A stretch of 64,000 bases of DNA. Origin: Eledone cirrhosa. Its lineage: Eukaryota. How positions within the stretch are numbered: the stretch's first letter is position 1; each line of letters starts with the position of its first letter. Below the pieces are notes generated by a model. It saw only the letters and a program-made list of their open reading frames with translations, searched no databases and had not been told where the DNA came from. The position numbers and the translations under genes were made by a program. The stretch lies in assembly GCA_964016885.1 (NCBI GenBank), contig OZ024742.1, forward strand, positions 287,866,001-287,930,000, written 5' to 3'. Below are positions 1 through 62,870 of this stretch, one piece after another.

Positions 1-62
1 ATATATATATACATATATATATACATATATATATACATATATATATACATATATATATATAC

Positions 63-95
<33 letters not shown>

Positions 96-454
96 CATAT
101 ATACATATATATATATACATATATATATATACATATATATATATACATATATACCTATACATATATACATATACATATATAATAAATAACCTCATACTGC
201 CTGCTGGATAAGTGGAGTGTTATACACCCCTGATCCTTTCCCTAGCATACATATACATATATATATACATATATACATATATATATATATACATATATAT
301 ATACATATATATATACATATATATATACATATATATACATATATATATATACATATATATATACATATATATATACATATATACATATATATATATATAC
401 ATATATATATACATATATATACATATATATATATATATATACATATATATATAC

Positions 455-501
<47 letters not shown>

Positions 502-563
502 TATATACATATATATATACATATATATATATATATACATATATATATACATATGTATATACA

Positions 564-619
<56 letters not shown>

Positions 620-626
620 TATATAC

Positions 627-657
<31 letters not shown>

Positions 658-658
658 C

Positions 659-741
<83 letters not shown>

Positions 742-1501
742 TATATACATATATATATACATATATATATACATATATATATATATACATATATATATAC
801 ATATATATATACATATATATATACATATGTATATATATATATACATATACATACATATATATACATATATATATATATATATACATATATATACATATAT
901 ATATATACATACATATACATATATATATATACATATATATATATACATATACATATATACAGATATATACATATATATATATACATATACATATATGCAT
1001 ATATACAGATATATATATACATATATACATATATATATATACATATATACATATATACATATACATATATACATATATACATATACACATATACATATAC
1101 ACATATATACATATATATATATACATATACATATATATATATACATATACATATATATATATACATATACATATATACATATACACATATACATATACAT
1201 ATATACATATACATATATACATATATATACATATACATATACATATACATATATATACATATACATATACATATATATACATATACATACACATATATAT
1301 ATATATACATACATAAATACATATACATATATATATATATATATACATACACATATATATATATATACATACACATATATATATATACATACATAAATAC
1401 ATATATATACATATATATATACATATATATATACATATATATATACATATACATATATATATACATATACATATATACATACATATACATATATATACAT
1501 A

Positions 1502-1563
<62 letters not shown>

Positions 1564-1619
1564 CATATATACATATATATATATATACATATATATATAT
1601 ACATATATATATATACATA

Positions 1620-1653
<34 letters not shown>

Positions 1654-1948
1654 CATATATACATACATATACATATACATATATATATATACATATATAT
1701 ATATACATATATATATATACATATATATATATACATATATATATATACATACATATATATATATACATACATATACATATATATATATACATACATATAC
1801 ACATATACATATATATATATATATACACATATACATATATATATATATATAGATATACATATATATACACATATATATATATATAGATATATATATATAT
1901 ACATATATATACACATATACATATATATAGATATATATATATATATAG

Positions 1949-1979
<31 letters not shown>

Positions 1980-2026
1980 CATATATATATACATATACAT
2001 ATATATAGATATATATATATATATAG

Positions 2027-2057
<31 letters not shown>

Positions 2058-2497
2058 CATATATATATACATATACATACATATATATATACATATACAT
2101 ACATATATATATACATACATATATATATACATATACATACATATATATATACATATACATATATATACATATATACATATACATATACATATATATATAT
2201 ACATATATACATACATATATATATATACATATATACATACATATATATATATATATACATATATACATATACATATATATATACATATACATATACATAT
2301 ATATATATATATACATATACATATACATATATACATATATATATATACATATACATATATATATACATATACATATATATATACATATACATATATATAT
2401 ACATATACATATATATATACATATACATATATATATATACATATATATATACATATACATATATATATACATATACATATATATATACATATATATA

Positions 2498-2530
<33 letters not shown>

Positions 2531-2534
2531 ATAT
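1..2534. repeat. Compound (TA)n/(TACA)n microsatellite with a 65-bp unique island at about 181-247
   Basis: Seen directly; it generates the spurious Y/I/H/C/M ORFs. Confidence 0.98.
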
Positions 2535-2565
2535 AAGATCAAAAGATGGTTAAAGGAGTTCCATG

Positions 2566-2636
2566 TATTTTATTATGCGCATTTCAAAAACAAACATCAT
2601 CATGCAATAATATTTGTGTTTTCATCAGATAAAACA
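2566..2636 (-). ncRNA. Minimal type-I hammerhead ribozyme
   Basis: Minus strand reads UGUUUUAU-CUGAUGA-[16-position stem II, 1 mismatch]-GAAA-UGCGCA-UA|AUAAAAUA. Stem I is 8 bp and stem III is palindromic. Confidence 0.85.
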
Positions 2637-3032
2637 GGACATGATATGAAGGCTAAAAAACACTTGTGGATAGTGCAGTTTTAAATCAACATATGAAAAG
2701 TAATTTTATAATGATGTGTGATATTGGGAAAAATATTTTATTTAGAGAGGGCGTGGGGGTGGAAAGGATGAAAAAAGGGGAGGAGATGAGAGTGAAGGTG
2801 GAGAGGGAGAGATGGGTGATAGAGAGAAAGAGATAGTTTTTATAACTGAGAGAAGATATATTGTTTTACATAGAGAGGTTGAAAACCGTTGGAAGATAAT
2901 GTATAAATTAAAAGAATTTGAAAATTAACGAAGGGAAAAAATATGTACGAGGAAAAAATATTTTATTTAGAGAGAGGGGGTGGAAAGGATGAAAAAAGGG
3001 GAGGAGATGAGAGTGAAGGTTGAGAGGGAGAG

Positions 3033-4349
3033 ATGGGTGATAGAGAGAAAGAGATAGTTTTTATAACTATTATTAAGAACAATATACGTAATCTCTTTAA
3101 CCAACGTAACCTAAAAATTGAATTTGATAATAGTATCAAACTAGCTAATTTCTTGGATGTATCTCTTAATCTTGACACTGGCCTATATTACCCTTACCAT
3201 AAAAACAATGAGAACCTAAATTATGTTAACTTTAAATCTAACCATCTTACCGATATCAAGAATGCTATAGTTAGTAATATTGGAAAAAGAATATCTAACA
3301 TATCTTCTAATAAAAACATCTTTGATGCTAACGCCAATTACTATAATAATGCACTTTCTAAAGCCGGTTATCCTGATAAAATCAAATATAATAAAGAAAC
3401 AAATTCTAGAAAAACTTACAGTAGAATAATTAATCATGATCATTCCAATAACTTTAATAAAAGACCTAGATACAAAAACATAATCTGGTATAATGCTCCT
3501 TTCTCCATCTCTATTAATAACAATATTCCTAAATTATTTTTTAGTGCCTTAAATAAATGCTTCCCTCCCTCACATATCTATAGTAAAATATTTAACAAAC
3601 ACACCATAAAATTTTCTTATTCTACATCCTCCAATATTTCCAACATTATCTCTAAACACAACAATAAAATACTAAATACTAAATCTCTTCCTTCCAACAT
3701 TGAATTTCATAATAACAGTAATAGTACTCCCGACGTCATTGTAAACCCTAGGCTAACTTCTGTAAACCCAAATACAACGTCAAACACAACTTCGCTAAAT
3801 GTTCATAATCCAACTCTAAATCAAGAAACTATTATTCCTATTATTCCTATCGCAAACAACTTCTCCAATCCAATTCCTTCTATAGATAACACTAGGTCAC
3901 TCATTAATAATCTCTCTAATTGCAACTGCCGCATTAAAAATAAATGTCCTCTCAACAACCATTGTCTTGATAAAAACTTAATTTATGAATGTAAAGTTAT
4001 AACTAGCACCAATTCCTTCACCTATTTTGGCTCCACTTCCACCTCTTTTAAAGCTCGTCTCTATAATCATCATTCATCTTTTAAATACAAACTTAAAAGA
4101 ACCAACACGGCTCTCTCAGAACTCATATGGTCCTTGAAAGACAAAAACATTAAATATACCATCTTTTGGAAGAAGGTTTCTTCTGCGTCCTCATACTTGA
4201 ACAGCTCTCTATCTAAAATCTGTAATCTCTGCCTAAATGAAAAATTTACCATTATCTCTAATCTAGATTCTGTAATAAATAGACGTACAGATTTGTTTTC
4301 TATCTGCTTGCATAAATTCCATAGGACTTTTCACAAAGTATACAGCTAA
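3033..4349 (+). CDS. PLE ORF remnant: RT thumb, linker and GIY-YIG endonuclease, with no RT catalytic core
   Basis: Thumb motifs NFLDVSL and YVNFKSNH; linker IIWYNAPFS..KCFP..KIFN..TIKFSYS; CNCR..CPL..CL; GIY-YIG-like LIYECKV..TYFGST..FKARLYNH; CNLCLNEK. The first 12 codons come from the inverted terminus. Confidence 0.85.
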   Translation: MGDREKEIVFITIIKNNIRNLFNQRNLKIEFDNSIKLANFLDVSLNLDTGLYYPYHKNNENLNYVNFKSNHLTDIKNAIVSNIGKRISNISSNKNIFDANANYYNNALSKAGYPDKIKYNKETNSRKTYSRIINHDHSNNFNKRPRYKNIIWYNAPFSISINNNIPKLFFSALNKCFPPSHIYSKIFNKHTIKFSYSTSSNISNIISKHNNKILNTKSLPSNIEFHNNSNSTPDVIVNPRLTSVNPNTTSNTTSLNVHNPTLNQETIIPIIPIANNFSNPIPSIDNTRSLINNLSNCNCRIKNKCPLNNHCLDKNLIYECKVITSTNSFTYFGSTSTSFKARLYNHHSSFKYKLKRTNTALSELIWSLKDKNIKYTIFWKKVSSASSYLNSSLSKICNLCLNEKFTIISNLDSVINRRTDLFSICLHKFHRTFHKVYS

Positions 4350-5379
4350 TATTCAATTCTTTATCAATTTAGAATCTTTTCTCAAAGGCACATATACATA
4401 CACCTCTTTAAAATATACCCATCTTCCTACCTTACTTCAAAGGGTATTATACACTCTATAATACTTGTTTACTCATTACCCTCATTCTATCTTCACCTTG
4501 TAAAATCCTTCATAACATATACATTTGTTTTTTTTGACGTTAGAATATTCATCCGCAATTATTATTATTTTTTCTCTCCATCATCAAACTTTTTAATCTC
4601 AATACATTAACTCCCTCTCCTTCTTCGTACACATTCTTTTGACGCTAGAATATTCATCCTTAATTTATTATTTTTTTCTCCCCATCATCTAACTCATTCT
4701 TAATACATATTAACTCTTTCTTCGCACATATTATCAATTCCTTCAATATACAAACCTTAACTTCACATTATTTTTCTCAAATCCTTCAATACACAAACCT
4801 TAATAATTTTTTAATACATATTAACTCTTTCTTCGCACATATTATCAATTCCTTCAATATACAAACCTTAACTTCACATTATTTTTCTCAAATCCTTCAA
4901 TACAAAAACCTTAATAATTTTTTTCTCTTCGTTAATTTTGAAATTGCCATAATACTTATAAACATACAACTTTTTTTGACGTTAGAATATTCATCCGCAA
5001 TTATTATTTTTTCTCTCTATCTTCAAACTTTTTAATCTCAATACATATCAACTCCCTCTCTTTCCTCGTACATATTTTTCCCTTCGTTAATTTTCAAATT
5101 CTTTTAATTTATACATTATCTTCCAACGGTTTTCAACCTCTCTATGTAAAACAATATATCTTCTCTCAGTTATAAAAACTATCTCTTTCTCTCTATCACC
5201 CATCTCTCCCTCTCCACCTTCACTCTCATCTCCTCCCCTTTTTTCATCCTTTCCACCCACCCCCTCTCTAAATAAAATATTTTTCCCAATATCACACATC
5301 AATCTAAAACTACTTTTCATATGTTGATTTAAAACTGCACTATCCACAAGTGTTTTTTAGCCTTCATATCATGTCCTCC

Positions 5380-5450
5380 TGTTTTATCTGATGAAAACAC
5401 AAATATTATTGCATGATGATGTTTGTTTTTGAAATGCACATAATAAAATA
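5380..5450 (+). ncRNA. Minimal type-I hammerhead ribozyme (stem III palindrome broken)
   Basis: CTGATGA at 5388, GAAA at 5431, then TGCACA-TA|ATAAAATA. Confidence 0.75.
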
Positions 5451-6058
5451 CATGGAACTCCTTTAACCATCTTTTGATCTTATATATTATGTATACTCCA
5501 GTCCTACAAACTGTAGAGTGCTTCTTATCTGATATCTGCATTGCTTTATTGTACTACAATAAAACTCACCTCCTACATATACATATATATATACATATAC
5601 ATATATATATATACATATATATACATATACATATATATATACATATACATATATATATACATATACATATATATATACATATATATACACATATACATAT
5701 ACATATACACACATATACATATATACATATATATATACACACATATACATATATACATATATATATACACACATATACATATATACATATATATATACAC
5801 ACATATACATATATACATATATATATACACACATATATATATACACATATATATATACACACATATATATATACACACATATACATATATACATTTATAT
5901 ATACACACATATACATATATACATATATATATACACACATATACATATATACATATATATATACACACATATACATATATACATATATATATACACACAT
6001 ATACATATATACATATATATATACACACATATACATATATACATATATATATACACAC

Positions 6059-6105
<47 letters not shown>

Positions 6106-6304
6106 TATATACATATACATATATATATACATATATATACATATATATACATATATATATACATATATATACATATATATACATATATACATATATATAC
6201 ATATATATACATATATACATATATATATACATATACATATATATATACATATACATATATATATACATATACATATATATATACATATACATATATACAT
6301 ATAC

Positions 6305-6350
<46 letters not shown>

Positions 6351-6424
6351 ATACATATACATATATATATACATATACATATATACATATACATATACAT
6401 ATATATATATACATATATATATAC

Positions 6425-6456
<32 letters not shown>

Positions 6457-6716
6457 ATACATATACATATATATATATATATACATATACATATGTAGAT
6501 AAATCTACCAAGAGTTTACGGTAGTGTCCAATCCGTATGAAGAACTCAATGTATTCCGGATATCATGGAAAGAAGAGATGTAATGAAAAATCACTTTCGG
6601 TGAAAGATAAACGGTATACAGAGTCAAGATAAAATATTAAACAAATAATGAATAATAATATTCATTATTTGTTTAATATTTTACATATACATATATATAT
6701 ACATATATATATATAC

Positions 6717-6765
<49 letters not shown>

Positions 6766-6868
6766 CATATACATATACATATATATATATACATATACAT
6801 ATATATATATACATATACATATACATATATATATATACATATATACATATATATATATACATATATAC

Positions 6869-6901
<33 letters not shown>

Positions 6902-7114
6902 CATATATACATATATATATATACATATATATATATACATATATATATATACATATATATATATATACATATATACATATATATATATACATATATACAT
7001 ATATATATATACATATATATATATACATATATACATATATATATATACATATATACATATATATATATACATATATACATATATATATATACATATATAC
7101 ATATATATATATAC

Positions 7115-7157
<43 letters not shown>

Positions 7158-7180
7158 CATATATACATATATATATATAC

Positions 7181-7281
<101 letters not shown>

Positions 7282-7346
7282 CATATATACATATATATAT
7301 ATATACATATATATATACATATATACATATATACATATATATATAT

Positions 7347-7377
<31 letters not shown>

Positions 7378-7388
7378 TACATATATAC

Positions 7389-7487
<99 letters not shown>

Positions 7488-7489
7488 CA

Positions 7490-7895
7490 TGGTGGCTGCC
7501 AACTCGTTTTCGAGTACGGCCACTACTTTATATCCATGTAGGAGAACCCCTACCAATGCGCTGAACGAATGTGACTTTTTAGTCCAGCCAGCGACTTGAA
7601 AACTCTGGTACAAACACTACACTTGTGACAATTATTGACACATAGTGCTGGGCCCATGGTACCATGTGACGACAAGTGTAGAGAGATCTCCAGATATAAA
7701 GCAATGCCTGTGCTGTGAAGCTTTTATAGTGAGCAAAGGCACTGCACAAAGCCAGTCCCACTCTCTTAACCAAGATGATATTTACCAAAAAGAAGAACAA
7801 GTCAACATCATTGGATACCATCAGGGTTGCAGGTGTTATATCAGAGTTTTCCTTCTCCTAGAATTCTGCCTTGACAAAGGCTAAGGGGTCATCTC
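7490..7895 (+). mobile_element. Interspersed repeat (RTE 5'UTR-like), related to 18050-18330 and 63275-63565
   Basis: The three copies share blocks close to AAGCAATGCCTGTGCT, GTCAACATCATTGGAT and CAGAGTTT(T)CC(T)TCTCCTAGAA. Confidence 0.6.
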
Positions 7896-7933
7896 TCATG
7901 TATATATACATATATATATATATACATATATAC

Positions 7934-7964
<31 letters not shown>

Positions 7965-7973
7965 CATATATAC

Positions 7974-8078
<105 letters not shown>

Positions 8079-8087
8079 CATATATAC

Positions 8088-8182
<95 letters not shown>

Positions 8183-8194
8183 CATATATATACA

Positions 8195-8264
<70 letters not shown>

Positions 8265-8286
8265 CATATATATACATATATATACA

Positions 8287-8338
<52 letters not shown>

Positions 8339-8419
8339 CATATATATAAATATATACATACATATATATATATATATACATATATATAAATATATACATA
8401 TATATAAATATATACATAC

Positions 8420-8450
<31 letters not shown>

Positions 8451-8553
8451 CATATATATATATACATACATATATATATATATACATACATATATATATA
8501 TATACATATATATAAATATATACATATATATATATATATACATATATATATAC

Positions 8554-8584
<31 letters not shown>

Positions 8585-8685
8585 CATATATATATATACA
8601 TATATATATATACATATATATACACATATATATATATACATATATATATATACATATATAAACACATATATATATATATACACAT

Positions 8686-8822
8686 ATATCGAATAAGGAA
8701 ATGATGTCACGACACTCGCACACAGAACAGTGTGGCCAGTGTCGCCATTGAAATATATATCACAGCATTATTATTAAAGGATTTGAACATCTGAAACTAC
8801 TTCGCTTTTCCTTATTCGATAT
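8686..8822. mobile_element. 137-bp element with 16-bp terminal inverted repeats (MITE-like or fold-back)
   Basis: ATATCGAATAAGGAAA at 8686-8701 and TTTCCTTATTCGATAT at 8807-8822, with an internal hairpin. Confidence 0.55.
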
Positions 8823-9052
8823 TTACTCCGTCACTCCTATGTGGAATAAGTACGTTGAGTGCTTGAATTGAATTGCATCAATATTTACCCTGATATATAC
8901 ACATATATATACATACATATATACACATATATATATATATACATATACACATATATACACACATATATATATATATATACACATATATACACACATATAT
9001 ATATATATACACATATATATATATATATATACATATACACATATATACACAC

Positions 9053-9083
<31 letters not shown>

Positions 9084-9440
9084 TATATATCTATATATAT
9101 ATACATATACACATATATACACACATATATATATATCTATATATATATACATATACACATATATACACACATATATATATATCTATATATATACATATAC
9201 ACATATATACACACATATATATATATCTATATATATACATATACACATATATACACACATATATATATATCTATATATATACATATACACATATATATAT
9301 ATCTATATATATATACATATACACATATATACACACATATATATATATACATACATATACACATATATACACACATATATATATATATACACATATATAC
9401 ACACATATATACACACATATATATATATATACACATATAT

Positions 9441-9487
<47 letters not shown>

Positions 9488-9490
9488 TAG

Positions 9491-9539
<49 letters not shown>

Positions 9540-9542
9540 TAG

Positions 9543-9587
<45 letters not shown>

Positions 9588-9590
9588 TAG

Positions 9591-9635
<45 letters not shown>

Positions 9636-9642
9636 TACACAC

Positions 9643-9675
<33 letters not shown>

Positions 9676-9676
9676 T

Positions 9677-9723
<47 letters not shown>

Positions 9724-9724
9724 T

Positions 9725-9769
<45 letters not shown>

Positions 9770-9770
9770 T

Positions 9771-9813
<43 letters not shown>

Positions 9814-9838
9814 TATATATATATACACATATATACAC

Positions 9839-9917
<79 letters not shown>

Positions 9918-9938
9918 TACATATATATATATATATAC

Positions 9939-10278
9939 GGAGGCACATGGCTTAGTGGTTAGAGCATTGGCCTTGCAATCGAAAGGTTGAGAGTTCAATT
10001 CTCAGACCGGGTGATGTGTTGTTTCCTTGAGCAAGACACTTTAATTCACATTGCTCCAGTTTACTCAGCTGTAGAAATGAGATGATAGGACTGGGGTCCT
10101 TATCATTCCACTGTGAAATGGTCGTGGAGGTGCCACGGCAAAAAAGCACCCAGCACTAACTGTAAATGAGGTTGGTGTTAGGAAGGGCATCCAGCTGTAG
10201 AAATCAAGCCAGAATCAGTTCCCGTCCCACCCTTGCAAGCAGGGAAAAGTGGACGTAAAATGAATTGATGATGATGAT
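9939..10278 (+). mobile_element. tRNA-derived SINE with RTE-type 3' tail
   Basis: A-box TGGCTTAGTGG, B-box GAGTTCAATTCT, tail CCCTTGCAAGCAGGGAAAAG..(GAT)n. Near-identical to 58194-58537. Confidence 0.9.
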
Positions 10279-10402
10279 ACATATATATATATATACACAC
10301 ATATATAGATACATATATATATACACACATCTATAGATACATATATATATATATACACATATATATACATATATATGTATATACATATATGCTCATGTAT
10401 GT

Positions 10403-10441
<39 letters not shown>

Positions 10442-10609
10442 CTCTACCATTTCCTCTAAGAGTTGTACCAAATTCCATATTGAGAACTTCCTTTCCTGGC
10501 TTCCATGTTTACCATTTAACTCATCATTAGCTTCACATTAGCAACACACATTTCTGATGACAAACATTTAACTTATACAAAAACAGTAACGCTGTAATTT
10601 TTTTTTACT

Positions 10610-11235
10610 TCAAAACACTCAGTCCAACCTGTAAAGTGTTGCTACTATGAAAAAAACACTCAGTCCACCCTGTAATGTGGTAGTGTTGGTCCTATGACAA
10701 AAACACCCGGTCCACCCTGTAAAGTAGTAGTGCTGATGTCAGTGAAAAAACATCCACTTCACCTTGTAAATTGGTAATGCTTGTACCATTACAAAAAACA
10801 CCCTCTCCACCCTGTAAAGTGGTAGTGTTGGTACCTTGATAAAAACATCCAGTCCACCCTGTAAAGTGGTAGTGTTTCTACTATGACAAAAACACCCAGT
10901 CCACCCTGTAAAGTGATAGTGTAGGTACCATGACAAAAGCACCCAGTCCATCCTGTAAGATGGTAATGCTGGTGTCAATGAAAAGTACCCAGTCCACCCT
11001 ATAAAGTGGTAATGTTGGTACCATGACAAAAAACACCCAGTTCACACTGTAAGGTGGTAGTGCTGGTACCTTGATAAAAAACACCCAATCCACTCTGCAA
11101 GGTGGTAGTACAGGTGTCACAATGATAAACACCCAGTCCATCCTGTAAGTTGGTAGTGCTGGTGTCACAATGAAAACCACCCAATCCACCCTGTAAAGTT
11201 GTTGGTATTAAGGCATCCATCCATAGAAACTAAGC
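10610..11235 (+). repeat. About 49-50-bp minisatellite (about 12 units) derived from a SINE/LINE 3'UTR segment
   Basis: Unit is approximately AAAAACACCCAGTCCACCCTGTAAAGTGGTAGTGCTGGTACCATGAC. Confidence 0.9.
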
Positions 11236-11338
11236 CCAAAATCTAAGGTATGAGCAAGATGTGCTCGCCTGACCTATCTAGCTCCTGAACATGACAAACC
11301 ATTAACACATGCCAGCATGGAAAAATAGCTGTTAAACA

Positions 11339-11818
11339 GTGATGGTGGTGGTGGTGGTAGTGATGGTGGTAGTGATGGTGGTGGTGGTGGTGGTGATGAT
11401 GGTAGTGATGGTAATGATGGTAGTGGTGGTGGTGGTGGTGTGGTGATGGTGGTAGTGATGGTGGTGGTGGTGGTGGTGATGATGGTAGTGATGGTAATAA
11501 TGGTAGTGGTGGTGGTGGTGGTGGTGGTGTGGTGATGGTGGTGGTGATGGTGGTGGTGATGATGGTGGGTGGTGGTGGTGGTGATGGTGGAGATGATGGT
11601 AGTGATGGTAGTGGTGGTGGTGGTGTGGTGGTGGTGGAGGCGGGGTGGGGGTGGGGTGGGGGGGGATGATGATGTTGGTGGTGGTGGTAGTGGTGATGAC
11701 GGTGATGGTGACGGTGGTGACGGTGGTGGTGATGAAGAAGAGACAATGGACAGGTGAATAATGAATCAGTGTCAGATAAAGGAAGAAGATGAAGGCATTA
11801 AAGGGATTACAATAGTCA

Positions 11819-11855
<37 letters not shown>

Positions 11856-11994
11856 CGCGATAGTAATAGTAGTGGTGGTGATAGTGGTAGTTGTAGTAGT
11901 AGTAATAGTTGTGGTGGTGGTGTGGGTGGTGATAGTAATAGTAGTGGTGGTGGTGGTAGTAGTAGTAGGAATAGTAGTAGTAGTAGTTATGTTG

Positions 11995-12026
<32 letters not shown>

Positions 12027-18046: not shown

Positions 18047-19235
18047 AATATGGTGGCTACAAACTCTGCTAAGAGTATTGCAATCACTTGTTAGATTATA
18101 GAGTTTTGTGCACTTTAGGCTACTGTCAGCCACACAAACCTGTAACATATCCTGTACAAGCAATGCCTGTGCTTTGAATTTTCTTAAATGGGGAAAGGCC
18201 ACTCTCTGAGCATCAAAAACACCACCTGAAAAGGAGAACTTGTCAACATCATTGGATGCTTCTGAAGCTGCAGGTTTTATTTTCAGAGTTTCCCTCTCCT
18301 AGAAAGGTGTTGTGACAACCATTGGGGGACCAGACCGAAAAAAAAAAGTTCTATTTAGATGGCCGTTGACTCTGCTGAGTACCTCCACCCATTGCCGGGT
18401 CTTGTATTTCATCTTGCATATATATACATACATATATAGTCGTGTAGGCATCACAACAAAAAGCACCCAGCACACACTGTAAATGTGGTTGGCGCAAGGA
18501 AGGGCATCCAGCTGTAGAAAACCAGCCAGAAACTGTCACTCGACCCAACTTGCCTCTAAATGTGACAAACCCTTCTAACCCATGTCAGCATGGAAGATGG
18601 ACATTAAACGATGATGATGATATATATATATATATACACACTTGCACATCTACGCATACACCCACACTTCATCCCACAACGCGTCCTGATTTGACATGAT
18701 CTCATTTCATCCCATCCATCTCCCTCTATCCACACACAAACACACCTACACCCATACAGGGACTATACAGACAGACACACACTCCATGCCCAACACACAC
18801 ACAATGGTTTTTCAAAGCCCACATACACATTCCTTCCAAACTCTCTCACACATACACTTACATCTATACATACACACACGCCTTACCTTCCGCCATCCCC
18901 ACTCAGACTCAATTTTTATCGGTATTCATACCCTCAACGTGCATAATGATGGTTTAGTGTTTGAAAAAATTGTCAGCCATTAAAAATATATGTATTCATA
19001 AATTTTTGTTGTTCTCTCCAGCATTTTATATATGCTTTTTTGCTCTGCTTATGATAATTTTGCTAGACATATTTCCTTCCATTTACTTGCTTGGTTTGCT
19101 TGTCTTGCAATCTATATACATCGAGCACACCAACCCTCTCTCTACTGGCTTGTAATCTGTGTAACTAATCACTTATTTCTGATTTTTGATTGGTTTGCTT
19201 GCTTTTTATTTGATATATATATATATTTATATATA

Positions 19236-20547
19236 TGCCCTCTTCTTAGTGAGACAACTACAAGAGAGGTTCTTAGAGAAGAATAAGCCACTATACTTAG
19301 CTTTTGTTGACCTAGAAAAGGCCTTTGATAGGGTACCCCGATATGTCATCTGGTGGTCCCTAAGGAAACTAGGTGTAGAGGAATGGCTTGTGAGGACAGT
19401 GCAAGCTATGTACAGGGGTGTTGTCAGTAAAGTGAGAATAGGAATGGAGTTTAGTGAGGAATTCCAGATACAAGTAGGAGTACATCAGGGTTCGGTCCTC
19501 AGCCCGCTCTTGTTCATTATAGTCCTCCAAGCCATAACAGAAGAGTTTAAGACTGGATGCCCATGGGAACTTCTCTATGCTGATGATCTGGTTCTTATAG
19601 CAGAATTAGTAGAGGAGCTAGAGGATAAATTCTGGCTATGGAAACAGCAGTTGGAATCAAGAGGACTGAGAGTGAACATAGCTAAGACAAAAGTGTTGAT
19701 GAGTAGAAAGAGGACAAAACTCTGATTCCATCAGGGAAATGGCCATGTTCGATATGCAGAAAAGGAACTGGCATAAATTCTATAAAATACACACAATGCA
19801 GATCCTGGGTACACAAGAGATGTAGTGGGATAGCAGGAAAACTAACAGGTAGGGAAAACTACGTAAAGTTGGCAGTAGTAATCGCAGTGATAGACACATT
19901 TTTCCAATGCAGGTGGGTTCTATAGAAGTGGTTGATAGCTTCCGGTACCTAGGTAATCAGATTAGCATGGGAGGAGGTGTTCCGAGGCCATAGTATCTAG
20001 AATAAGGACGGGTTGAAAGAAGTTTAGGGTGCTGATTCCTCTGTTGACAAAGAAGGGTTTCTCCCTGCGTACGAAAGGATGGTTATATGATGCCTGTGTG
20101 AGATGCGCGATGCTGCATGGTAGAGACATGGGCAGAAACTACAGAGGATATGCGACAGCTGGAGAGAAATGATGTAAGTATGCTCCGTTGGATGTACAAT
20201 GTCAATGTGCGTGAACAACCAAGTATAGATGAGTTGAGAAAGAAATTGGGTATAAAAGGGATAAGTTGTGGTGTGCAGGAGAGAAGACTGAGATGGTATG
20301 GACATGTGATGCGCATGGAGGATGACCGCTGGGTAAAGAAGTGCCAAGAAATGCCAGTAGAAGGAAGACGCAGTAGAGGAAGACCACGAAAAACATGGGC
20401 GGAGGTGGTGAGAGCAGACCTCAGATCGCTGAAACTCACAGAGGAGATGACGAAGGACTGTGACAAGTGGAGAGATGCTGTGCTGAATAGGACCCGTCCT
20501 ACCCTTGCAAGCAGGGAAAAGCAGACGTAAAATGATGATGATGATGA
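19236..20547 (+). mobile_element. 5'-truncated decayed RTE LINE (RT, PHD remnant, C-terminus, GAT tail)
   Basis: FVDLEKAFDRV, GVHQGSVLSPLLF, LLYADDL, RLRWYGHV and GRPRKTW, with stops and frameshifts. Confidence 0.95.
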
Positions 20548-24093: not shown

Positions 24094-24178
24094 CTGTTGC
24101 AACATCCAGCAGGTAAATGATGGCAGACAGAACAACAATTGCCACATCTTGGCTGTGAAAATCTCTTCCAGATGACAT
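24094..24178 (-). CDS. Probable first coding exon of an XK-related (Xkr scramblase family) gene
   Basis: Encodes MSSGRDFHSQDVAIVVLSAIIYLLDVAT plus G, then a perfect ACAG|GTGAGT donor. Resembles the Xkr first TM motif D-hydrophobic-Y-x-x-D-V-x-T-D. There is an in-frame upstream stop. Downstream exons were not located. Confidence 0.55.
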
Positions 24179-26789: not shown

Positions 26790-28560
26790 CTTGTGTCGAG
26801 GGTTCTTAAGCCGATTCTGTCGTGGGTAACGTTGTACGAGTTGGTCGGCTGAAAAAATGTTGGGCGGGACTCGAGTTGCCGGTTGACGGTAGGTTTCGGT
26901 GATTGAGAAGAGCTAGATAAACGTCACTCTTTTCAAAACTACATTTCTTCATTAAATTTATTGTCTCAGTACCAGATTTACTATTGTGCTTAGATGTGCT
27001 TAAGTACAGGGCCCCGTTGGCTCGGGGGCGGGGGGGTCTTCCTGCCAAAATTTGTTTTTACGATGAACTTTTCAAATGTTTTTCAAATGTCAACCGTTCA
27101 AAGGGGCCTCATAACTTAAGAAGCACAGGGCCTCATTTGTCCTAAATCCGGCACTACTTTGCCTGCTTCTCGACTGCCTCGGCCTTTACAATACATTGAC
27201 TGTGATACGGGCTGCAGGTCCGATGATCAAATTCCCACGTTTGGGCAAACATTTTGAACTCAGTACTAGTGAATTGAGGACCATTATCTGATACTACAAT
27301 TTGGAGGATCCCGTGTTGCGCAAGCTGGGATCGTTATAACTTCTCGCGTGTTTGTTCTGGGAAGGTTATTGACTTCAAAGAAATTGCAGAAGTAGTCGAT
27401 GTTAGCACATACCTTCGGTAGTCTATTGGGTGACCATCTTGGAGTAAGACTGGCTGCTATCACATTGCACGACCAGGTCTTTAGATGCGTCATAATAAAC
27501 AAGCACAGGCAATTCGGTAATTTGGGTTTTGATTCTTTCGAATGTTTTCTCATGTCCGAAAGTTCAGATCCGGGGTACACCACTTTGCATGAGGGCTCTA
27601 AGGGGTTGCATTTCATGAGATAAATTGGGAAGAAACCTACTAAGGTAGTTCACCAGGCCTTGAAACTTTGACAAACTTTTTGCATCCGATGGTCGTTGCA
27701 TCTGTCGAATTGCTAGGACTTTCTCTAGGTCTACATTTAAGCCTTTTTTTTATGTTAGAAAGTGCCCGTGGAACGGCACTTCAGTCTTGTTAAAGTCAAT
27801 TTTTGTTTGTGAAGTTTAATGTTTTAATGAACACACCGCTTAAGGAGATTCTCAAAATTCGTATTATGTTCTAGAGTTCGCCCGTAAATAAGAATGTCAT
27901 CGGCTACACAGATTACGCCTGGGATACCCTCCAACGCTTATACTAAAGGTTTTTGAAATATTTCACCCGAGACCTTGAGGCCAAAGGGTAATCTCAACTA
28001 TCTATACCGAGCGATTGGCGTAGCAAAAGTAATCATATAACTAGGATTTTGGTCCAACTCATGTTGCCAATAGGCAGAGTCAAGGTCTACTTTGGAAAAA
28101 TACTTTGCTCTTGTTGATAACGGAAGCATGTCTTCTACAATTGGCAATGGATAATGCTCACGCTGCAAGGTCTCGTTTAAGTGTTTCGGGTCAATACATA
28201 TTCGTAATGCGCCATTCTTTTTCGTGTTATCAATGATCTGGCTAACCCATCCGATGGGCTCCTCAACTTTCGCGATCACTCCTAGCTCTATTAAACGTTG
28301 TAACTCAACTTGAACTTTAGCGTTACGGGAATTCGGCGGACTGGAAGTACAACAGGCTTCACCTTATCAGTCGTCTTTAACGCTACTTTTCCCGAAAAAC
28401 GCCCCAAACCTTGGCGAAAAGCTTGCATATAGTTTGCAATTAATCTATTAGTCTCGATTTTGCATATAAAATTATCATGATTTATCCCTAAGAGCTTCAT
28501 AGTTTGCGTTGTGGATGCTTCAAGGAGTGCACGAAAATCCTCTTTGCCTATGGCAAAGGG
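26790..28560 (-). pseudogene. Decayed Ty3/Gypsy pol (RT and integrase fragments), interrupted by a hAT MITE at about 26967-27155
   Basis: LRICIDPKHLN..REHYPLP, FSKVDLDSAYWQ, TFATP, CVADDIL (about 27890-27912) and SDNGPQF (about 27270-27290). Confidence 0.9.
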
Positions 28561-28763
28561 TAAAATATAAGTTTCCAGTCACAGCTACCATTATATAACG
28601 GAGGAGGCACTTTTAAACTGGCCCTTCATTCAGGCACATGGACAAAAATATGAAAAGGGAAGTTGTTGCCCTTCTGCTAAATTTCTTTCCTAAAAGTAGA
28701 GAAGAGAAGTGATGCACCTGAGCACTGTACAAAATAATTTTCATTATTATTATTATAAAAGTA

Positions 28764-41911: not shown

Positions 41912-43648
41912 TTTTATGCCATAATGTAAAATTTCATCGTACATTTACTTTATCATTAACTCGTTGTTTTTAACACTATTGTATTTAATTATTTCACAAA
42001 ATGAAATGAAAGTGAAATATGGTACATGAATCTCCCACGACGAAGGCGACCACAAGCGAAAATTTAAAATCATTGTCGACTACTTGCAAAAATAAATTCA
42101 ACATATGTATCAAGTGTTTTTTCATTTAATGTTCGTCTTTATATATGATACATAAAACACGTATATAATCCATTTATGATTGAAATAAGTTATATTCACA
42201 GGATTCATTCCATCGTGTGGAAATTATATTATTTAATACGCCAACCATAGCTGATATTGCTGCTAAGGGGAGATAACACGACCATGGCGAGTCATCGAAA
42301 TTCTCGACCTTCTAGAAATGACAGTCAAATTGCACCTTAACTTCTTTAGAATGGAAGAACACACTGGATAGTATAATCTAGTAAAAGAAAACACGAAGAA
42401 AACAATCACTACCATCTCTGGGATAATAAATATGTGAAATTTTTTAAAAATAGAAAACGAAAATTGTGGTATAAATGCAACAAGAAAAAGCCAGTTCCAT
42501 TCAAAACAAATTCAAATGCTCTTTCATTTATCATTTTTATTTGTTTCTTAAGTTTGAAACTGCTTGTAGCTGTCTAAAGGTGTACATATTTGTGATCTGT
42601 GGAATCTAGAAAGCTAAAAATTTCTCAAATGAATTAGTATTTAGGTGATCATTTGCTTCTCAATGCTAATTAATTACTCCCCTTATTTTGTTTTCCTTTA
42701 AAAAAAAAAAAAGAAAAAAAAAGTGAAGCATGTCCCAAACCTCCAAGCTCATCTGGCTGGAGTTTATCTCGGTTTCCTTGATGTTAAGTGACCGTACAAA
42801 ACAGGATGGGACACCAATCTGCTGTAGATTTCTACCTAGTTACTGCTTCTTCAGCCGAGTGAACTGGAGCAATATGAAATGAAGTGTCTTGTTAAGGGAC
42901 ACAACATGCTGTGACGTCATGCCAAGCCCACTTTCATGCGAGTGTTATGTAAATTCTATTCATTAACTACAATATTTAAAAACAATTGTAAGTTGAAATG
43001 ATTGATAACACATCTACAATATTGAAATGAAATAAAACAACATTTACAGCTTACACCTATGCTACCTACCCTTCTAGGTTTCTGAAGTGTTTTTATGTTA
43101 AGGGGCCCCAGTCCTATCATGAAAATCAACATAAAATGAAGCATCTAACTCAAGAACACATGTCGCCCATTCAGGAATTGAATAAATGACCTTGTGATCA
43201 TGAGTGCAATACCCTAATCTCTAGGCCATGCACCTTTTGGGTGAAATTAAAGAAAGTCTTATTTTTACTACTATGGTGACCAACTGCAATTAAACAGTTG
43301 GAGAATTGACAGGAATGTAGTTCATATGAATCCAAAGGCCCAGTTCTTGGACAGAGTGAATCTTGCTTTTCAAAAAAGTGCTTTTAGCAATTGAGTTATT
43401 TTGTTCACCAATCATCTTCATAATAATTTAACCGTTAAATAATAAACCCCACTCCCCATCCTAATGGAGTTAACTCAATTGAATATAACTGCACAAATAT
43501 ACTTGCATTCTCTGTCTATGGTTTGTTTTTCAAATTTCATACTTTTCTCTATCTCTAAAAGATCTTGCTGTATTCCTTTTTTAAATTATATATCCACAGA
43601 CGTCTACAGGAATCAAAGCAAATCCATTTGCTGTAGTTCTGTGCCAAG

Positions 43649-43862
43649 ATGACTCAAGAAGAAACCGCAGTGGCTGGCATTGATGTCACACCTAAACAGG
43701 ATGGTGGTGTGATTAAAGAGATTTTACGGGCAGGTGACAGTGATGAACAGCCAACCAATGGTGATACTGTCATTGTACACTATGTTGGGACTCTACCAGA
43801 TGGAAGCGAGTTTGATTCCAGTCGGTCTCGTGGAGAAAAATTCACTTTTGCTCTTGGAGAAG
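43649..43862 (+). CDS. FKBP4: FKBP4/FKBP52-like PPIase, coding exon 1 (FK1 domain)
   Basis: MTQEE..DVTPKQDGGVIKEI..GDTVIVHYVGTLPDGSEFDSSRSRGEKFTFALG; donor G|GTAAAT, phase 1. Confidence 0.93.
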
Positions 43863-43927
43863 GTAAATATGAAGTTATCTCTAGCACATATACAGGCATG
43901 CATATTTTTTTGCATATGTGATTCATG

Positions 43928-43970
<43 letters not shown>

Positions 43971-43971
<1 letters not shown>

Positions 43972-46900
43972 CATCATCATCTTCGTTTAACGTCCATTTT
44001 CCACGCTAGCATGGGTTAGACGGCAGTTGTCCCACTTGAGGCAAAGCTGGTCGGGTGACCGTGTCTCGCTCATAGAGGACTATCTGGCAGGTTTTCTACG
44101 GCTGGATGCCCTTCTTAACACCAACCACATTTACAGTGTGGAACTGAGAACTTACCATGTTACCTACACGGCCACATTACAGCGTGGACTGTGTGTTTTT
44201 TGTCATGACACCTACACGATCTCGATCTCATTTTCTCGCGCTGTTGGTGGGAGTGGGAGGATAGGGTAGGGGTTGTGGATTGGGGTGTATATTTAGTTAA
44301 GAGGTGCCTACTGACTGTAGATTTCGCTTTGTACATAGGCAAGGCGGGTCTTCTGTATTACTGCGTAGCGCCAAAGATCTCGGTCCAGAGACATTGTCTT
44401 AGAAAGATGTGTGTGAGGTCGGAATTTATCAGATCATCCCAGGTTGTTCTGGGTCTACCTACTCCGTAACTACCATCAACTTTGATCGCCCTGCACTTTT
44501 TTTATGCAGCTGTCGTCTTTCATGCGCATCAGGTGACCATACCAACGTAGTCTTCTCTCAAGTAAACAGCATCTGATCCCTCTTATTCCTAATTTCTCAC
44601 TTAGTTAATTTATGCTTTGCCGTTCACGTATATTACTATTACACATCCAACAGAGCATGCATGCTTCGTTCCTTTCCAGTCTACACAGGTCCTCTGCACG
44701 TAATGCCCATGTCTCACTGCCACGTAGCATTGCTGTTCGTATACAGGCATCATACAATCTGCCTTTCATTTTTAGAGAGAAACCTTTTGTGGCCAACAGC
44801 GGTATAAGCTCTCTGAACTTTTTCCATCCCGTTCTGACTCTGGCTACTGTACTTTCAGAACACCCTCCACCACTGCTGATTTTGTCACCCAGGTAACAGA
44901 AAGTGTCTACTATTTCTATAGAACCATCTGGGCAATAGAAGGAGCTAGTATCCTTTGGACACTTGCTACTTATTGCACCTAAGCATTGGCCACATATAAA
45001 GTCTACGTTCTTAGATAATTTACCTGTGATCCCACTACATCTTTTATGTACCCATACTTTGCATTTGGGACATAAAATGGAATTTCTGCCTACTCCTTTC
45101 CTACACACTGAGCATGGCCATTTCCCTGAGGGCACCTGTGCCCTATTTTCCTTTCTACAAACTAGAACTTTAGTCTTAGACAAGTTAACTTTAAGGCCTT
45201 TTGATTCTAGGCCATGCTTCCATGTTTCGAATTTCTTCTCTAGTTCAGCCATTGATTCAGCTATGAGCGTTAGATCATCTGCGTATAGGAGTTCCCATGA
45301 GCAGCCGGTCTTGAACTCCTCTGTTATAGCCTGAAGGGCAATAATAAATAAGAGGGGGCTAAGGACAGAGCCTTAATGAACATGTCTTCTATAGCTCTCA
45401 CAAGCCATTCATCAACACCTTTTTTTTCTAAGAGCCCACCAGATAATGGAGCGGGGGACTCTGTCAAAGGCTTTCTCCAAGTCAACAAAAGCTAAGTAGA
45501 TGGGTTTACTTTTAGCTAGGTGCTTCTCCTGTAGTTGTCATACAAGGAAAAGAGCGTCTGTGGTACTTTTACCTGACACAAACCCAAACTGTATTTCATC
45601 TAGATCAATTCGCTCTCTGATTAGTTGCGTTATAACTCTTTCTGTGACCTTCATGACCTGGTCAACTAACTTAATGCCTCTATAGTTTCCTCTATCTAGA
45701 GCATCCCCTTTACCTTTGTAGCAGTTAATGATGATGCTGCTACGCCAGTCTTTCGGTATGACCCCATTCTGTATTACTTGGTTAACTATACGGGTGACCA
45801 TAGTGTGTCCCACCATACCAGATGCCTTCAACATCTCAGCAACTATCTCTGAAGGCCTAGCTGCCTTGCCTGTCTTCATATCTTTGATTGCCTTACTTAT
45901 TATACTACCTTTAACTTGCACTGCTGGTCCTTCTATTGGATCGCTTTGGGGCAGACTATCTTTTTCCCATTTATTCTCCTCATTTAATAGTCTCTCGTAG
46001 TGACACTTCCAGGCTATCTTCTTATCAGTATCAGTGAGCGCAAGTACACCATTATCATTACGGACACACGTCTCCCCGACAATATCACGGTTTTCCTTGA
46101 CACATTGTCTCACAATCCTGAACACCTCACGTTTTTGGTCCTCACGTTGTAGAACATGCTTGAACTTTCTATCCTCTGCTACCCTTTTTGCAAGGTAGTC
46201 TTAGCTTCTCTCCTGGCCACTTGATAGTGCTCTCTACTTCCTCCATCCTGCCATACTTTCCAAGCCTGCTTTTTGGTCTTGATTGTCTCTTCCACCTTAC
46301 TGTTCCACCACCAAGTTACTCTCCTCCTGCCAATAGGTCTGCTCCAGCCACAGATTTCATCCGTTGCTTTCAGCAGGTTCACTTTCAAGAATTGCCACTG
46401 TTCCTCTATATTGCACGTCTCTAATTGCTCTTCCTTATTGTCAAAGGCATCAAATAATAAGCTTTTAAATTTGTCACTGGCTATGGGGTCCTTCAACTTC
46501 CATATTCTTCTCCTCAAGGTAGGCCTCCTCTGTCGTCGAGTACGTCTATTCCTGACTATGAGGTCACTAACTACTAGTCTATGTTGGTAGGTGCATTCTT
46601 CACGGGGGAGGGATTTAGTGTTTACAATAGACATTTTGTCCCGTCTTCTAGTAAGGATATAATCTATCTGGTTGGCGTGTTCCCCTGATCTATAGGTGAT
46701 CAAGTGGTTTTCACGTTTTTTGAAGTTTGTGTTACAGATAGTTGGGCTATTTGCGTCACAGACTTCCAGGATTCTGAAGCCCTCCTCATTTCTATTTCCA
46801 ATCCCATAGCCTCCATGGATTCCATCATAGCCATCACTATGTTGTCCAACGTGACCGTTTAGATCGCCAGCAATAATTAAGTAGTCACTGTCGGTTATTT

Positions 46901-48034
46901 GGGAGGTAGTGTGCATTAGCATCTCATAGAACCTGTTCTTTATAACATCAGGTAGACCAGATTGGGGTGCATAAGCAGATATTATTGTCACAGTAGTTCT
47001 ATTTAGAACTAGTCTTAATTCAGTTATTCTGTCATTCATTCTATTTATGTCAATTACCTTATCTACCCATTTTTCAGCTAACATAATTCCTACACCACCC
47101 TGTCCGTTGTCATTTCCCACCCAGAAAAGTTTATAGCATCGCTTTTTACCCACAATGAATCTGGCAGACCCCCCCCCCCTCTCCACCTAGTCTCTTGAAT
47201 ACAACAAACATCAACTTCTTTACATTCAAGCATCTCTACAACCTCATTTAAGCGACCTTTCAATGTGCTTACGTTCATGGTACCAACTCTGAAGTTGGGA
47301 GGGTGGGATGGATGGGTTGGAGGAGTGTGGGAGACGGGATTTTGTTGGTCATCTGTGTCTGAAATAAAGAGGGGTCCTTGTATTCTCGTCTTGCAGTGGG
47401 AGGTGAATTTATCTTTATCTGTGACATTGTCATTGAGTGCTTAGACTTTTCAAATTTCCGCAGTCAACCCATCAAACAGGTCTAAACTTAAGGAGTAGTA
47501 ACCGGGGTGGTAGCTTTGCTATACTGATTTGTTAGAGAACTTACTAAAGCTGGTGAGTTATGATTGGACCATATAGCAATGGTGGTGGGCGTGGGAAGGA
47601 GCAAAGTGTTTACAAAGTTTGCGAGCGAGATGCAGGAAGGTTCTAGAATAATTATTTAATAACAATACTAGAAGGTTAGTTTTTAGGAAGGGTCCAACGA
47701 AGAGACATATTAAAAATATATAAAATATTAATTGAAAATCCGAGAGGAAAACGGAGAATTTGCCTTCTAGACACCTATAAAAAGTGGAGTTTAAAACCCA
47801 GACGAATTTATGGGTGACTTTAGGATAAGTTTAGTTTTTAGGAAGGGTCCAACAGATTGAGACATATTAAAAATATGTAAAATAATTTAAAATCAAAGAG
47901 GAAAACGGAGAATTTTAATTTTAGAGTGGTATAAATAAGAGTTTAAAACTGCTTAATTGAGGAGACTACGGAATAAAGAAAAGACAGTTATTGCTTACAT
48001 TCTCAAAATCGTCAGATCGCCCGTAAGATAGTTT
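43971..48034 (-). mobile_element. Near full-length inactive RTE LINE (APE, RT, PHD finger) in an FKBP4 intron
   Basis: APE motifs GTMNVSTL, CCIQETRW, AGDLNGHVG and NQIDYIL; RT motifs GNYRGIKL, QFGF and YADDL; (GAT)n tail. Has frameshifts and a deletion near 45380, and is flanked by (TA)n. Confidence 0.95.
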
Positions 48035-48256
48035 GATATATATATATATATGGACAGATTTAGAAAGGTGGGAAGTATTAATCGTGTGAAGTATTGGTAA
48101 TAGGCTTTCCTTGGAAATTAATGTTATGCAGCGGCGTATCAATTCATCTTGAGATTTGTCTCATCCATTTAACAAACACTCCAGGAAGTGAAGGTTTAAA
48201 TACCAAATCTATGAACTATTAGGCTCCGTGAAAGGATCACATGCATCTTTTTTACA

Positions 48257-48310
<54 letters not shown>

Positions 48311-49689: not shown

Positions 49690-50120
49690 TTAACTCTTTT
49701 GATACCAACCTAACCCAAACTGGCTCTGGTTCTATGAAATAAAACCACCTTTAATTTTTCATGCATTTCTAATGAAATACACTCTATTTTAATTGATTAA
49801 TGAAGAATTTTGAGGGATTTACTAAAATATTAATTTTATGTAAGGATCTTATATAAAATTATGTTAGCAGATTTTAATTTAAATTGGAAATCCTTAAAAT
49901 GGGTGGTTTTATTTCATAGAACCAGAGCTAGATTTGGCTGGGTTGGTAACTAAAAGGTTAAATTAAAATCTTCCAATATAATTTTATATAAGAACCATTA
50001 TTATCACCACTGTTTGTTGATTTTCCAGTTTTGCATGGGTTATATTAAGTTAATAAATTCCTCATTAATTAATTGAAATAAAGTGTATTTCATTAGTAAT
50101 ATGGTCACAATAGGGTAAAA
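49690..50120. mobile_element. Two piggyBac-like MITEs, one nested antisense within the other; decayed relatives near 52620-52846, 60450-60611 and 60964-61205
   Basis: TTAA at 49690 and 49958; 49694-49750 is inverted at about 49902-49957, and 49770-49810 is inverted at about 50055-50095. Confidence 0.65.
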
Positions 50121-56402: not shown

Positions 56403-56432
56403 GTTGGTATCATATTTTTATAGACTTCTTTC

Positions 56433-62693: not shown

Positions 62694-62870
<177 letters not shown>

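What the first reader, a model, noticed from the sequence alone, without database searches (positions are those of the whole stretch)
2535..5481. Penelope-like element bounded by an outward-facing pair of minimal hammerhead ribozymes
Seen: 420-bp inverted termini, each with a complete CUGAUGA/GAAA/UH core, an 8-bp stem I and an unusually long GU-rich stem II; the left copy has a palindromic stem III (A-UGCGCA-U) and the right copy carries a one-base break. Established: PLE pseudo-LTRs carry minimal type-I hammerheads whose palindromic stem III supports dimeric cleavage. Inference: transcripts from either strand could self-cleave about 40 nt before the element end. If the candidate minus-strand Xkr gene spans this region, the intact minus copy would lie in its pre-mRNA.
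Basis: partly seen in the sequence, partly recalled or inferred. Interest (0 to 1): 0.75.

Follow-up and report, generated by a model that had tools for sequence, protein, structure and literature searches.

The report
Truncated Hydra-type Penelope retrotransposon copy
This is a shortened copy of a very abundant Penelope-like jumping gene whose two mirror-image ends each carry a hammerhead-shaped RNA motif, a layout already described for such elements; the pair likely arose because both cut DNA ends copied the same RNA, and the two ends would likely pair with each other instead of cutting a transcript.

Summary
Window 2535-5578 is a 5'-truncated copy of a young, abundant Hydra-clade Penelope-like element in a (TA)n tract. 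The genome holds 18,926 exact hammerhead-pattern matches (control 0), and 19 of 40 ORF-selected copies carry the same outward pair. The same layout is published for Penelope-13_HM. The right-hand stem III change is a 2% CpG-type variant. In 58 of 61 outward pairs one end stops near +46 and the other at +134 from the ribozyme site, and the arms usually share private variants. Both target ends therefore likely prime one uncleaved RNA; the scan has noted this reading before on other genomes and found Hydra-type ends in this one. Cleavage is untested and probably weak: on either strand the complementary arm is transcribed first, and copy ends show no sharp pile-up at the cut site. An Xkr gene likely spans the site through a roughly 727-kb first intron (no RNA proof). 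New family of a known kind.

The parts
246..2534 (.). Left (TA/CA)n target tract
   Evidence: sequence; 90% A+T
2535..2955 (-). Inverted arm: 5'-truncated copy of the element's 3' end, with the short end (about +40 to +51 from the hammerhead site, blurred by TA)
2566..2636 (-). Type I hammerhead motif, stem III palindrome intact, predicted cut after 2574
2951..3068 (-). Second inverted piece (repeat of 5168-5287), likely a slip-back of the reverse transcriptase at a GGAAAA microhomology
   Evidence: slip-back is inference
3069..4349 (+). 5'-truncated ORF: residues about 375-800 of the 800-aa protein (end of RT core, thumb, N-rich linker, CxCx5C, GIY-YIG-type endonuclease); the catalytic YRDD (357) is missing; 14 differences from intact copy L081
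4350..5060 (+). 3' UTR with imperfect direct repeats (4529-4812, 4634-4923, 4971-5079)
5061..5481 (+). 3' pLTR region, partner of the left arm
5380..5450 (+). Type I hammerhead motif with G>A at 5438 in the stem III palindrome, predicted cut after 5442
5482..5578 (+).
5579..6496 (.). Right (TA/CA)n target tract
   Evidence: sequence; 87% A+T
24094..24178 (-). Candidate first coding exon of an XK-related gene; its likely first intron (about 727 kb) contains the element
   Evidence: splice not shown by RNA

Best explanation
The locus is one 5'-truncated insertion of a Hydra-clade Penelope-like retrotransposon in a (TA)n tract, and its outward hammerhead pair is likely a by-product of both cut target ends priming reverse transcription on one uncleaved element RNA. 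Shown: family identity, abundance, two fixed 3' end points (about +46 and +134 from the hammerhead site), one of each per inverted insertion, and arms that share private variants. Inferred: the endonuclease cuts both strands of (TA)n; one 3' end primes at +134 and the other at about +46, both at TA-like RNA sites; both cDNAs run through the hammerhead site, stop early and are joined by microhomology, very often at the self-complementary CATATG upstream of the ribozyme. The hammerhead is a conserved RNA structure of the family, probably slow and dimer- or protein-dependent; at this locus it is likely inactive because the complementary arm would pair with it.
For: Hydra motifs in intact copies: RW at 37, DKT at 123, CxCx5C at 659, CxxC and CxH around the conserved E and N (definition in PMC8557442 section 11). 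Predicted fold hits telomerase RTs at ranks 2-9. 23 of 40 ORF-selected loci have a terminal inverted arm and 22 of 23 pair a long with a short end. 58 of 61 outward pairs are one long, one short; 30 expected if independent, P about 1e-14. Arms are closer to each other than to the median other locus in 53 of 61 pairs and share rare ORF variants in 7 of 11 usable loci. At L164/L165 both 3' pLTRs carry an 8-nt deletion that both 5' pLTRs lack and that no other fetched locus has, which fits one linear read-through template. Four short arms that start at +134 stop at +36 to +55, near the other start site. 795 perfect palindromes are centred on CATATG, with varied junctions in others. Contigs of run X1 end in TA at the same +51, +134 and +136 sites. 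In vitro an anole PLE extends both strands, starts at two RNA sites that bound the tail and does not need hammerhead cleavage (PMC11167929).
Against: No biochemistry and no RNA data. Gene conversion between arms could also give shared variants. L119 and L134 have two long ends; L105 pairs two short ends but its arms differ at 17 of 162 sites and are probably separate insertions. L082 and L170 share no rare ORF variant between arms. L054 and L166+167 give mixed variant patterns that fit neither a simple linear nor a simple circular template. The window's own arms differ at 5 substitutions and 4 gaps inside the aligned arm, and one left-arm variant cluster was found in no other fetched locus. 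Target-site duplications cannot be read inside (TA)n. Clade placement rests on motifs, not on a tree with the published sequences.
Confidence: 0.7

Rival explanations
1. Single priming plus fold-back: one cDNA is made and the inverted arm arises by self-priming on an antisense template or on the new strand, as proposed for Adineta Penelope elements.
For: Proposed in PMC3846280 from palindromes at inverted junctions (passages). Explains shared variants and the CATATG and stem III palindromes at junctions.
Against: A fold-back copy of a short-ended strand cannot supply the extra tail, yet in 16 of 23 arm-bearing loci the ORF strand ends short and the arm ends long. Many junctions are asymmetric, with one arm much longer and unrelated ORF sequence next to the join, as in the window.
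Confidence: 0.15
2. Circular template: the hammerhead cuts tandem transcripts, monomers are ligated into 3,864-nt circles, and the circle is copied by rolling reverse transcription.
For: Proposed in PMC4209133. 5' and 3' pLTRs of one copy are often nearly identical, for example 1 mismatch in 897 at L166 and 1 in 895 at L054. Some copies start exactly at the predicted cut site (L185, L190, L191, L197).
Against: L164/L165 has different 5' and 3' pLTRs preserved in both arms. Starts at the cut site are at most about twice the controls: 40 non-deletion hits at +1, 13 at +8, 26 at +14, with TA microhomology favouring +1. It does not by itself explain inverted arms.
Confidence: 0.1
3. One reading: the two hammerheads actively cut transcripts crossing the locus, including Xkr pre-mRNA.
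For: Core intact in both copies; stem II changes across subfamilies keep pairing (97.4% of cells paired, A-U, G-U and G-C at the first pair); the element likely lies in Xkr intron 1.
Against: The complementary arm precedes the motif on either strand (about -100 against -10.6 kcal/mol). No sense partner for a dimer. A-U instead of the usual G-C at 10.1-11.1 (PMC4209133 calls G10.1-C11.1 highly conserved); AUA was the slowest of four triplets in a viroid hammerhead (PMC1636495 abstract). Metazoan PLE hammerheads showed no monomer cleavage and low dimer cleavage.
Confidence: 0.05

Closest known systems
Hydra clade of C-terminal-endonuclease PLEs, especially Penelope-13_HM (Craig et al. 2021, PMC8557442, Files S1 and S2)
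   Same: DKT, CxCx5C, CxxC and CxH motifs, (TA)n target, hammerhead near the 3' end; Penelope-13_HM has a 5'-truncated inverted copy and the hammerhead listed on both strands.
   Different: Unit 3,864 nt against 2,084-3,045 for the complete or longest listed families; RWT instead of RWK; N-rich low-confidence linker insert (residues 581-656); stem II 15 bp against 3-7 bp in the Hydra rows; AUA against GUH in those rows; tail about 85-95 nt against the 30-40 bp described.
Hydra-1_Obim (Octopus bimaculoides, same paper)
   Same: Same clade motifs and (TA)n target.
   Different: Different hammerhead stems and cleavage triplet, 2,507 bp, described as without pLTR; a different family (compared by eye from the supplement rows, not aligned).
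Poseidon_Ac of the green anole (Frangieh et al. 2024, PMC11167929)
   Same: Two reverse-transcription start sites that bound the tail; both target strands cut and extended; hammerhead not needed for insertion in vitro and protein-assisted.
   Different: Other clade; start sites lie inside the ORF and are not homologous to the target, whereas here both ends lie in the 5' leader at TA-like sites that merge with the target.
Minimal hammerheads of metazoan PLEs (Cervera and De la Pena 2014, PMC4209133)
   Same: Type I motif in pLTRs, palindromic stem III region, long helix II; pairs on opposite strands 100-700 bp apart were already reported.
   Different: Helix II here is about twice their 7-8 bp, there is no extra base before 10.1, and the active subfamily has A10.1-U11.1.
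Pen2a_Av of Adineta vaga (Arkhipova et al. 2013, PMC3846280)
   Same: Inverted pLTR flanking the insert, tail on one end, palindromes at junctions, asparagine-rich inserts.
   Different: Explained there by self-priming; visible target duplications; few copies.

Membership tests
Penelope-like element, endonuclease-bearing | Single ORF with telomerase-related RT | tested here: met
   821-codon open frame in intact copies; YRDD at 357; model mean pLDDT 76, telomerase RTs at ranks 2-9 by Foldseek, low TM-scores of about 0.3. Pfam and PDB sequence searches gave nothing.
Penelope-like element, endonuclease-bearing | C-terminal GIY-YIG endonuclease | tested here: inconclusive
   IYEC...YFG strands and conserved R, E, N align with 12 homologues, but no profile or fold hit to a GIY-YIG domain was obtained; the domain was not folded alone. 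The label rests on the motif and on PMC8557442.
Penelope-like element, endonuclease-bearing | pLTRs from partial tandems, direct or inverted, with a one-sided tail | tested here: met
   Direct 5' pLTR in 6 of 40 loci, terminal inverted arm in 23 of 40.
Hydra clade | DKG changed to DKT | tested here: met
   DKT at 123
Hydra clade | RWK motif near the N-terminus | tested here: inconclusive
   RWT here; RWK or RWR in all 12 aligned homologues
Hydra clade | [quoted passage not shown] | tested here: met
   CNCRIKNKC at 659, CNLC at 759, CLH at 787; no CCHH insert seen between the two endonuclease strands
Hydra clade | Insertion into (TA)n | tested here: met
   All 55 long ends printed run into TA; window flanks
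Hydra clade | Phylogenetic placement with published Hydra proteins | not tested
   No tree with the published sequences was built
Hydra clade | Generally under 3 kb | tested here: not met
   Unit 3,864 nt; a tendency in the paper, not a strict criterion
Type I hammerhead ribozyme | CUGANGA, GAAA and UH core around three helices | tested here: met
   Both window copies; core intact in 65 of 67 indel-free copies from the 40 ORF-selected loci
Type I hammerhead ribozyme | Helices conserved as structure | tested here: inconclusive
   30 copies: 97.4% of cells paired against 36-62% for slid controls; 8 of 15 stem II pairs vary on one side only and 2 on both; 12 of 500 shuffles reach the covariation score, 186 of 500 the two-sided count. 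The rows were pre-filtered for stem I and the first stem II pairs.
Type I hammerhead ribozyme | Match to an Rfam hammerhead model | tested here: not met
   No hammerhead family among 5 matches at E up to 10
Type I hammerhead ribozyme | Self-cleavage | not testable with these tools
   No RNA holder listed; genomic footprint test weak
Non-LTR retrozyme or MITE | No coding capacity; tandem hammerhead units or a fixed internal sequence | tested here: not met
   The window copy holds 426 codons of the ORF; small palindromes have varied junctions and follow the same long/short rule

The most novel reading that the evidence does not exclude
This Hydra family records a paired-priming insertion mechanism: one protein complex cuts both strands of (TA)n and copies a single linear, uncleaved RNA twice, from two fixed TA-like sites about 85-90 nt apart, so that every two-armed insertion gets one tail. 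Thousands of young copies, intact 800-aa ORFs and a 795-copy junction hot spot make it a ready system to test how PLE inverted repeats and tails form and what the hammerhead is for.
Probability: 0.55. Interest if true: 0.6.

Novelty: new member of a known kind. Interest (0 to 1): 0.3.

Why it matters
The locus itself is one of thousands and probably does nothing as a ribozyme. The family matters more: the origin of PLE inverted repeats is named as open in PMC8557442, and this young family gives a strict rule (58 of 61 pairs one long, one short; arms from one source) that ties the published two start sites to the inverted layout and argues against self-priming and, less firmly, against a circular template. 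It also seeds many long inverted repeats in introns, which would form double-stranded RNA (inference).

Tried and rejected
Rfam: only microsatellite-driven miRNA hits in 1-12000 and no hammerhead hit in 2536-5575. Pfam and PDB sequence searches did not name the protein. Sequencing runs: no RNA holder listed; contigs laid on the Xkr exon showed only unspliced sequence and say nothing about splicing. 'The broken palindrome is never copied': rejected, since 4 both-arm pairs appear among the first 100 of 394 listed TGCACA copies, although none of the pairs in my 39 TGCACA-selected loci had it on both arms. A sharp pile-up of copy ends at the cut site: not seen. One search used a mistyped pattern (7 hits) and was replaced. 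The L166+167 merge was wrong; that row is left out and was redone. A fold-back of the target flank at 5' junctions: clear only in L081 of 22 junctions examined. Locus and chance artefact: rejected.

Full report
Observation. Self-comparison shows the left arm 2522-2955 as an inverted copy of 5061-5495 (97.3%); unique sequence begins at about 2535. Each arm has CUGAUGA, a 15-bp stem II with one mismatch, GAAA, a six-base stem III insert and AUA closed by an 8-bp stem I. Predicted cuts fall after 2574 (-) and 5442 (+). A second inverted piece (2951-3068) lies between the arm and the ORF. Rfam does not recognise the motif.

Identity. The window ORF (3069-4349) is the last 426 codons of an 800-aa protein. 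A search of the genome listed 98 matches (only 98 of 95,635 candidates were scored), all 97-100% identical, many with the full 821-codon frame. The intact protein has RW, DKT, YRDD, CxCx5C, CxxC and CxH at the places given for the Hydra clade in Craig et al. 2021 (PMC8557442; I saw passages, section 11, supplement parts 2 and 3 and search hits). 35 unnamed homologues at 30-38% identity were found, 12 of which I aligned. The predicted fold matches telomerase and other RTs. The endonuclease label rests on motifs only. The published Penelope-13_HM has a 5'-truncated inverted copy and its hammerhead listed on both strands, and Cervera and De la Pena (PMC4209133; parts 1-2 of 4 read) already report opposite-strand pairs. 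An earlier, unchecked note calls this genome an octopus.

Abundance. The core pattern with TGCGCA occurs 18,926 times (reversed control 0), with TGCACA 394 times. The right copy thus carries a 2% CpG-type variant; in predicted dimers it weakens stem III from -12.5 to -3.7 kcal/mol. Of 40 loci taken in rank order from the ORF search (window and one partner arm skipped), 23 have a terminal inverted arm and 19 an outward hammerhead pair (arm classes were entered by hand).

Two fixed ends. Of 131 hammerhead copies measured, 71 end at +43 to +52, 55 at +132 to +137, and 7 run on into the ORF (133 rows in all by the printed tally). Among 100 sources (39 chosen by likeness to the right arm, 40 by ORF, 20 by position on C1, and the window) there are 61 outward pairs: 58 have one long and one short end, 2 two long, 1 two short; 30 are expected by chance. 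Contigs of run X1, of unknown kind and possibly the assembly's own sample, end in TA at the same sites. This matches the one-sided tail of PMC8557442 and PMC3846280 (passages) and the two start sites of PMC11167929 (parts 1-2 of 4 read), with a longer tail.

One template. Arms differ by a median of 1 site in about 160, against 4 to other loci, and are closer than that median in 53 of 61 pairs. Rare ORF variants are shared in 7 of 11 usable loci; 2 share none and 2 are uninformative. At L164/L165 both arms are full length; both 3' pLTRs carry the same 8-nt deletion and both 5' pLTRs lack it, which fits one linear RNA that was not cut at either hammerhead. L054 and L166+167 are mixed, and gene conversion cannot be excluded. 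The ORF strand has the short end and the arm the long one in 16 of 23 loci, which a simple fold-back cannot give. Small palindromes follow the same rule, and 795 are joined exactly at CATATG.

The hammerhead. The core is intact in 65 of 67 copies, but young copies would look so anyway. Across 30 distinct copies stem II changes are mostly A/G opposite U and U/C opposite G, and the first pair is A-U in 16, G-U in 12 and G-C in 2; two-sided changes are few and not above shuffles. This favours an RNA structure on the sense strand without proving it. Copies that start at the cut site exist. The pattern test gave 72 hits at +1, of which I read 32 as small deletions, 27 as TA-like context and 13 as other, against 14 (13 without a deletion) at +8 and 26 at +14; patterns differ in capture rate, so the excess is about twofold at most. 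Two earlier notes on other genomes report a sharp pile-up; this family does not show one.

Host gene. XK-related Pfam hits lie at G000:C3:287,158,181-287,162,976 on the minus strand. The first of these exons begins in phase 1. The window holds a single-copy 85-nt exon candidate (24178-24094, phase 1); the join is open and scores 42.4 bits against a paralogue, against 28.1 for the downstream exon alone. No other candidate was found in 97,860 bases scanned, which cover only a small part of the 727-kb gap. The element therefore likely lies in intron 1. Any transcript crossing it meets the antisense arm first; the arm pairs with the motif at -103 (minus) or -100 (plus) kcal/mol against about -10.6 for the motif alone. 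Cleavage of the pre-mRNA is unlikely; a long hairpin is the more likely product (inference).

Novelty. The layout, the tail and the hammerhead are in print. Searches showed no paper that counts the one-long-one-short rule or describes this family; subscription papers and bioRxiv supplements are not covered. I also saw part 1 of 5 of a 2026 preprint on retrozymes and the abstract of PMC1636495. I had the paired-priming reading before the first look-up; the scan holds it for several other genomes, which is not independent support. Verdict: new family of a known clade, interest 0.3.

Noticed in passing
L168:922-968 and L169:94-140 (G000 C1 and C2): A different short hammerhead (stem III CGCG) in 22 near-identical copies among the fetched loci; looks like a tandem retrozyme-type array.
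   Followed up: no
L046, L061, L063, L111, L146: At least two further hammerhead families with long stem II and 7-nt stem III inserts; L046 has an outward pair.
   Followed up: no
G000:C1, L120-L134: About 430-bp palindromic mini-insertions of this family; 795 are centred exactly on CATATG.
   Followed up: yes
L081:3745-3793: At the 5' junction about 20 bp of target flank are duplicated in inverted form around the TA tract, as if the target end folded back; clear in 1 of 22 junctions.
   Followed up: partly
window 2951-3068; L081, L103, L162, L163, L169: Recurrent duplications of 100-230 bp in the same purine/pyrimidine-biased part of the 3' UTR, likely a slippage hot spot.
   Followed up: partly
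L081 protein residues 581-656: Asparagine-rich, low-confidence insert in the RT-endonuclease linker, absent from most aligned homologues; recalls the N-rich inserts of Adineta Penelope elements.
   Followed up: partly
window 43637-56420 (+): Exons of an FKBP4/5-like gene (name recalled from the translated motifs, not searched).
   Followed up: no
window 61316-62870 (-): Exons of a tektin-like gene (name recalled, not searched).
   Followed up: no
window 19183-20527, 27157-28578, 44608-47440: Fragments of LINE-like and LTR-like retroelements (by eye).
   Followed up: no
window 24094-24178 to G000:C3:287,162,933: A likely first intron of about 727 kb in a gene whose other four coding exons span 5 kb; could also reflect an assembly or annotation issue.
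   Followed up: partly
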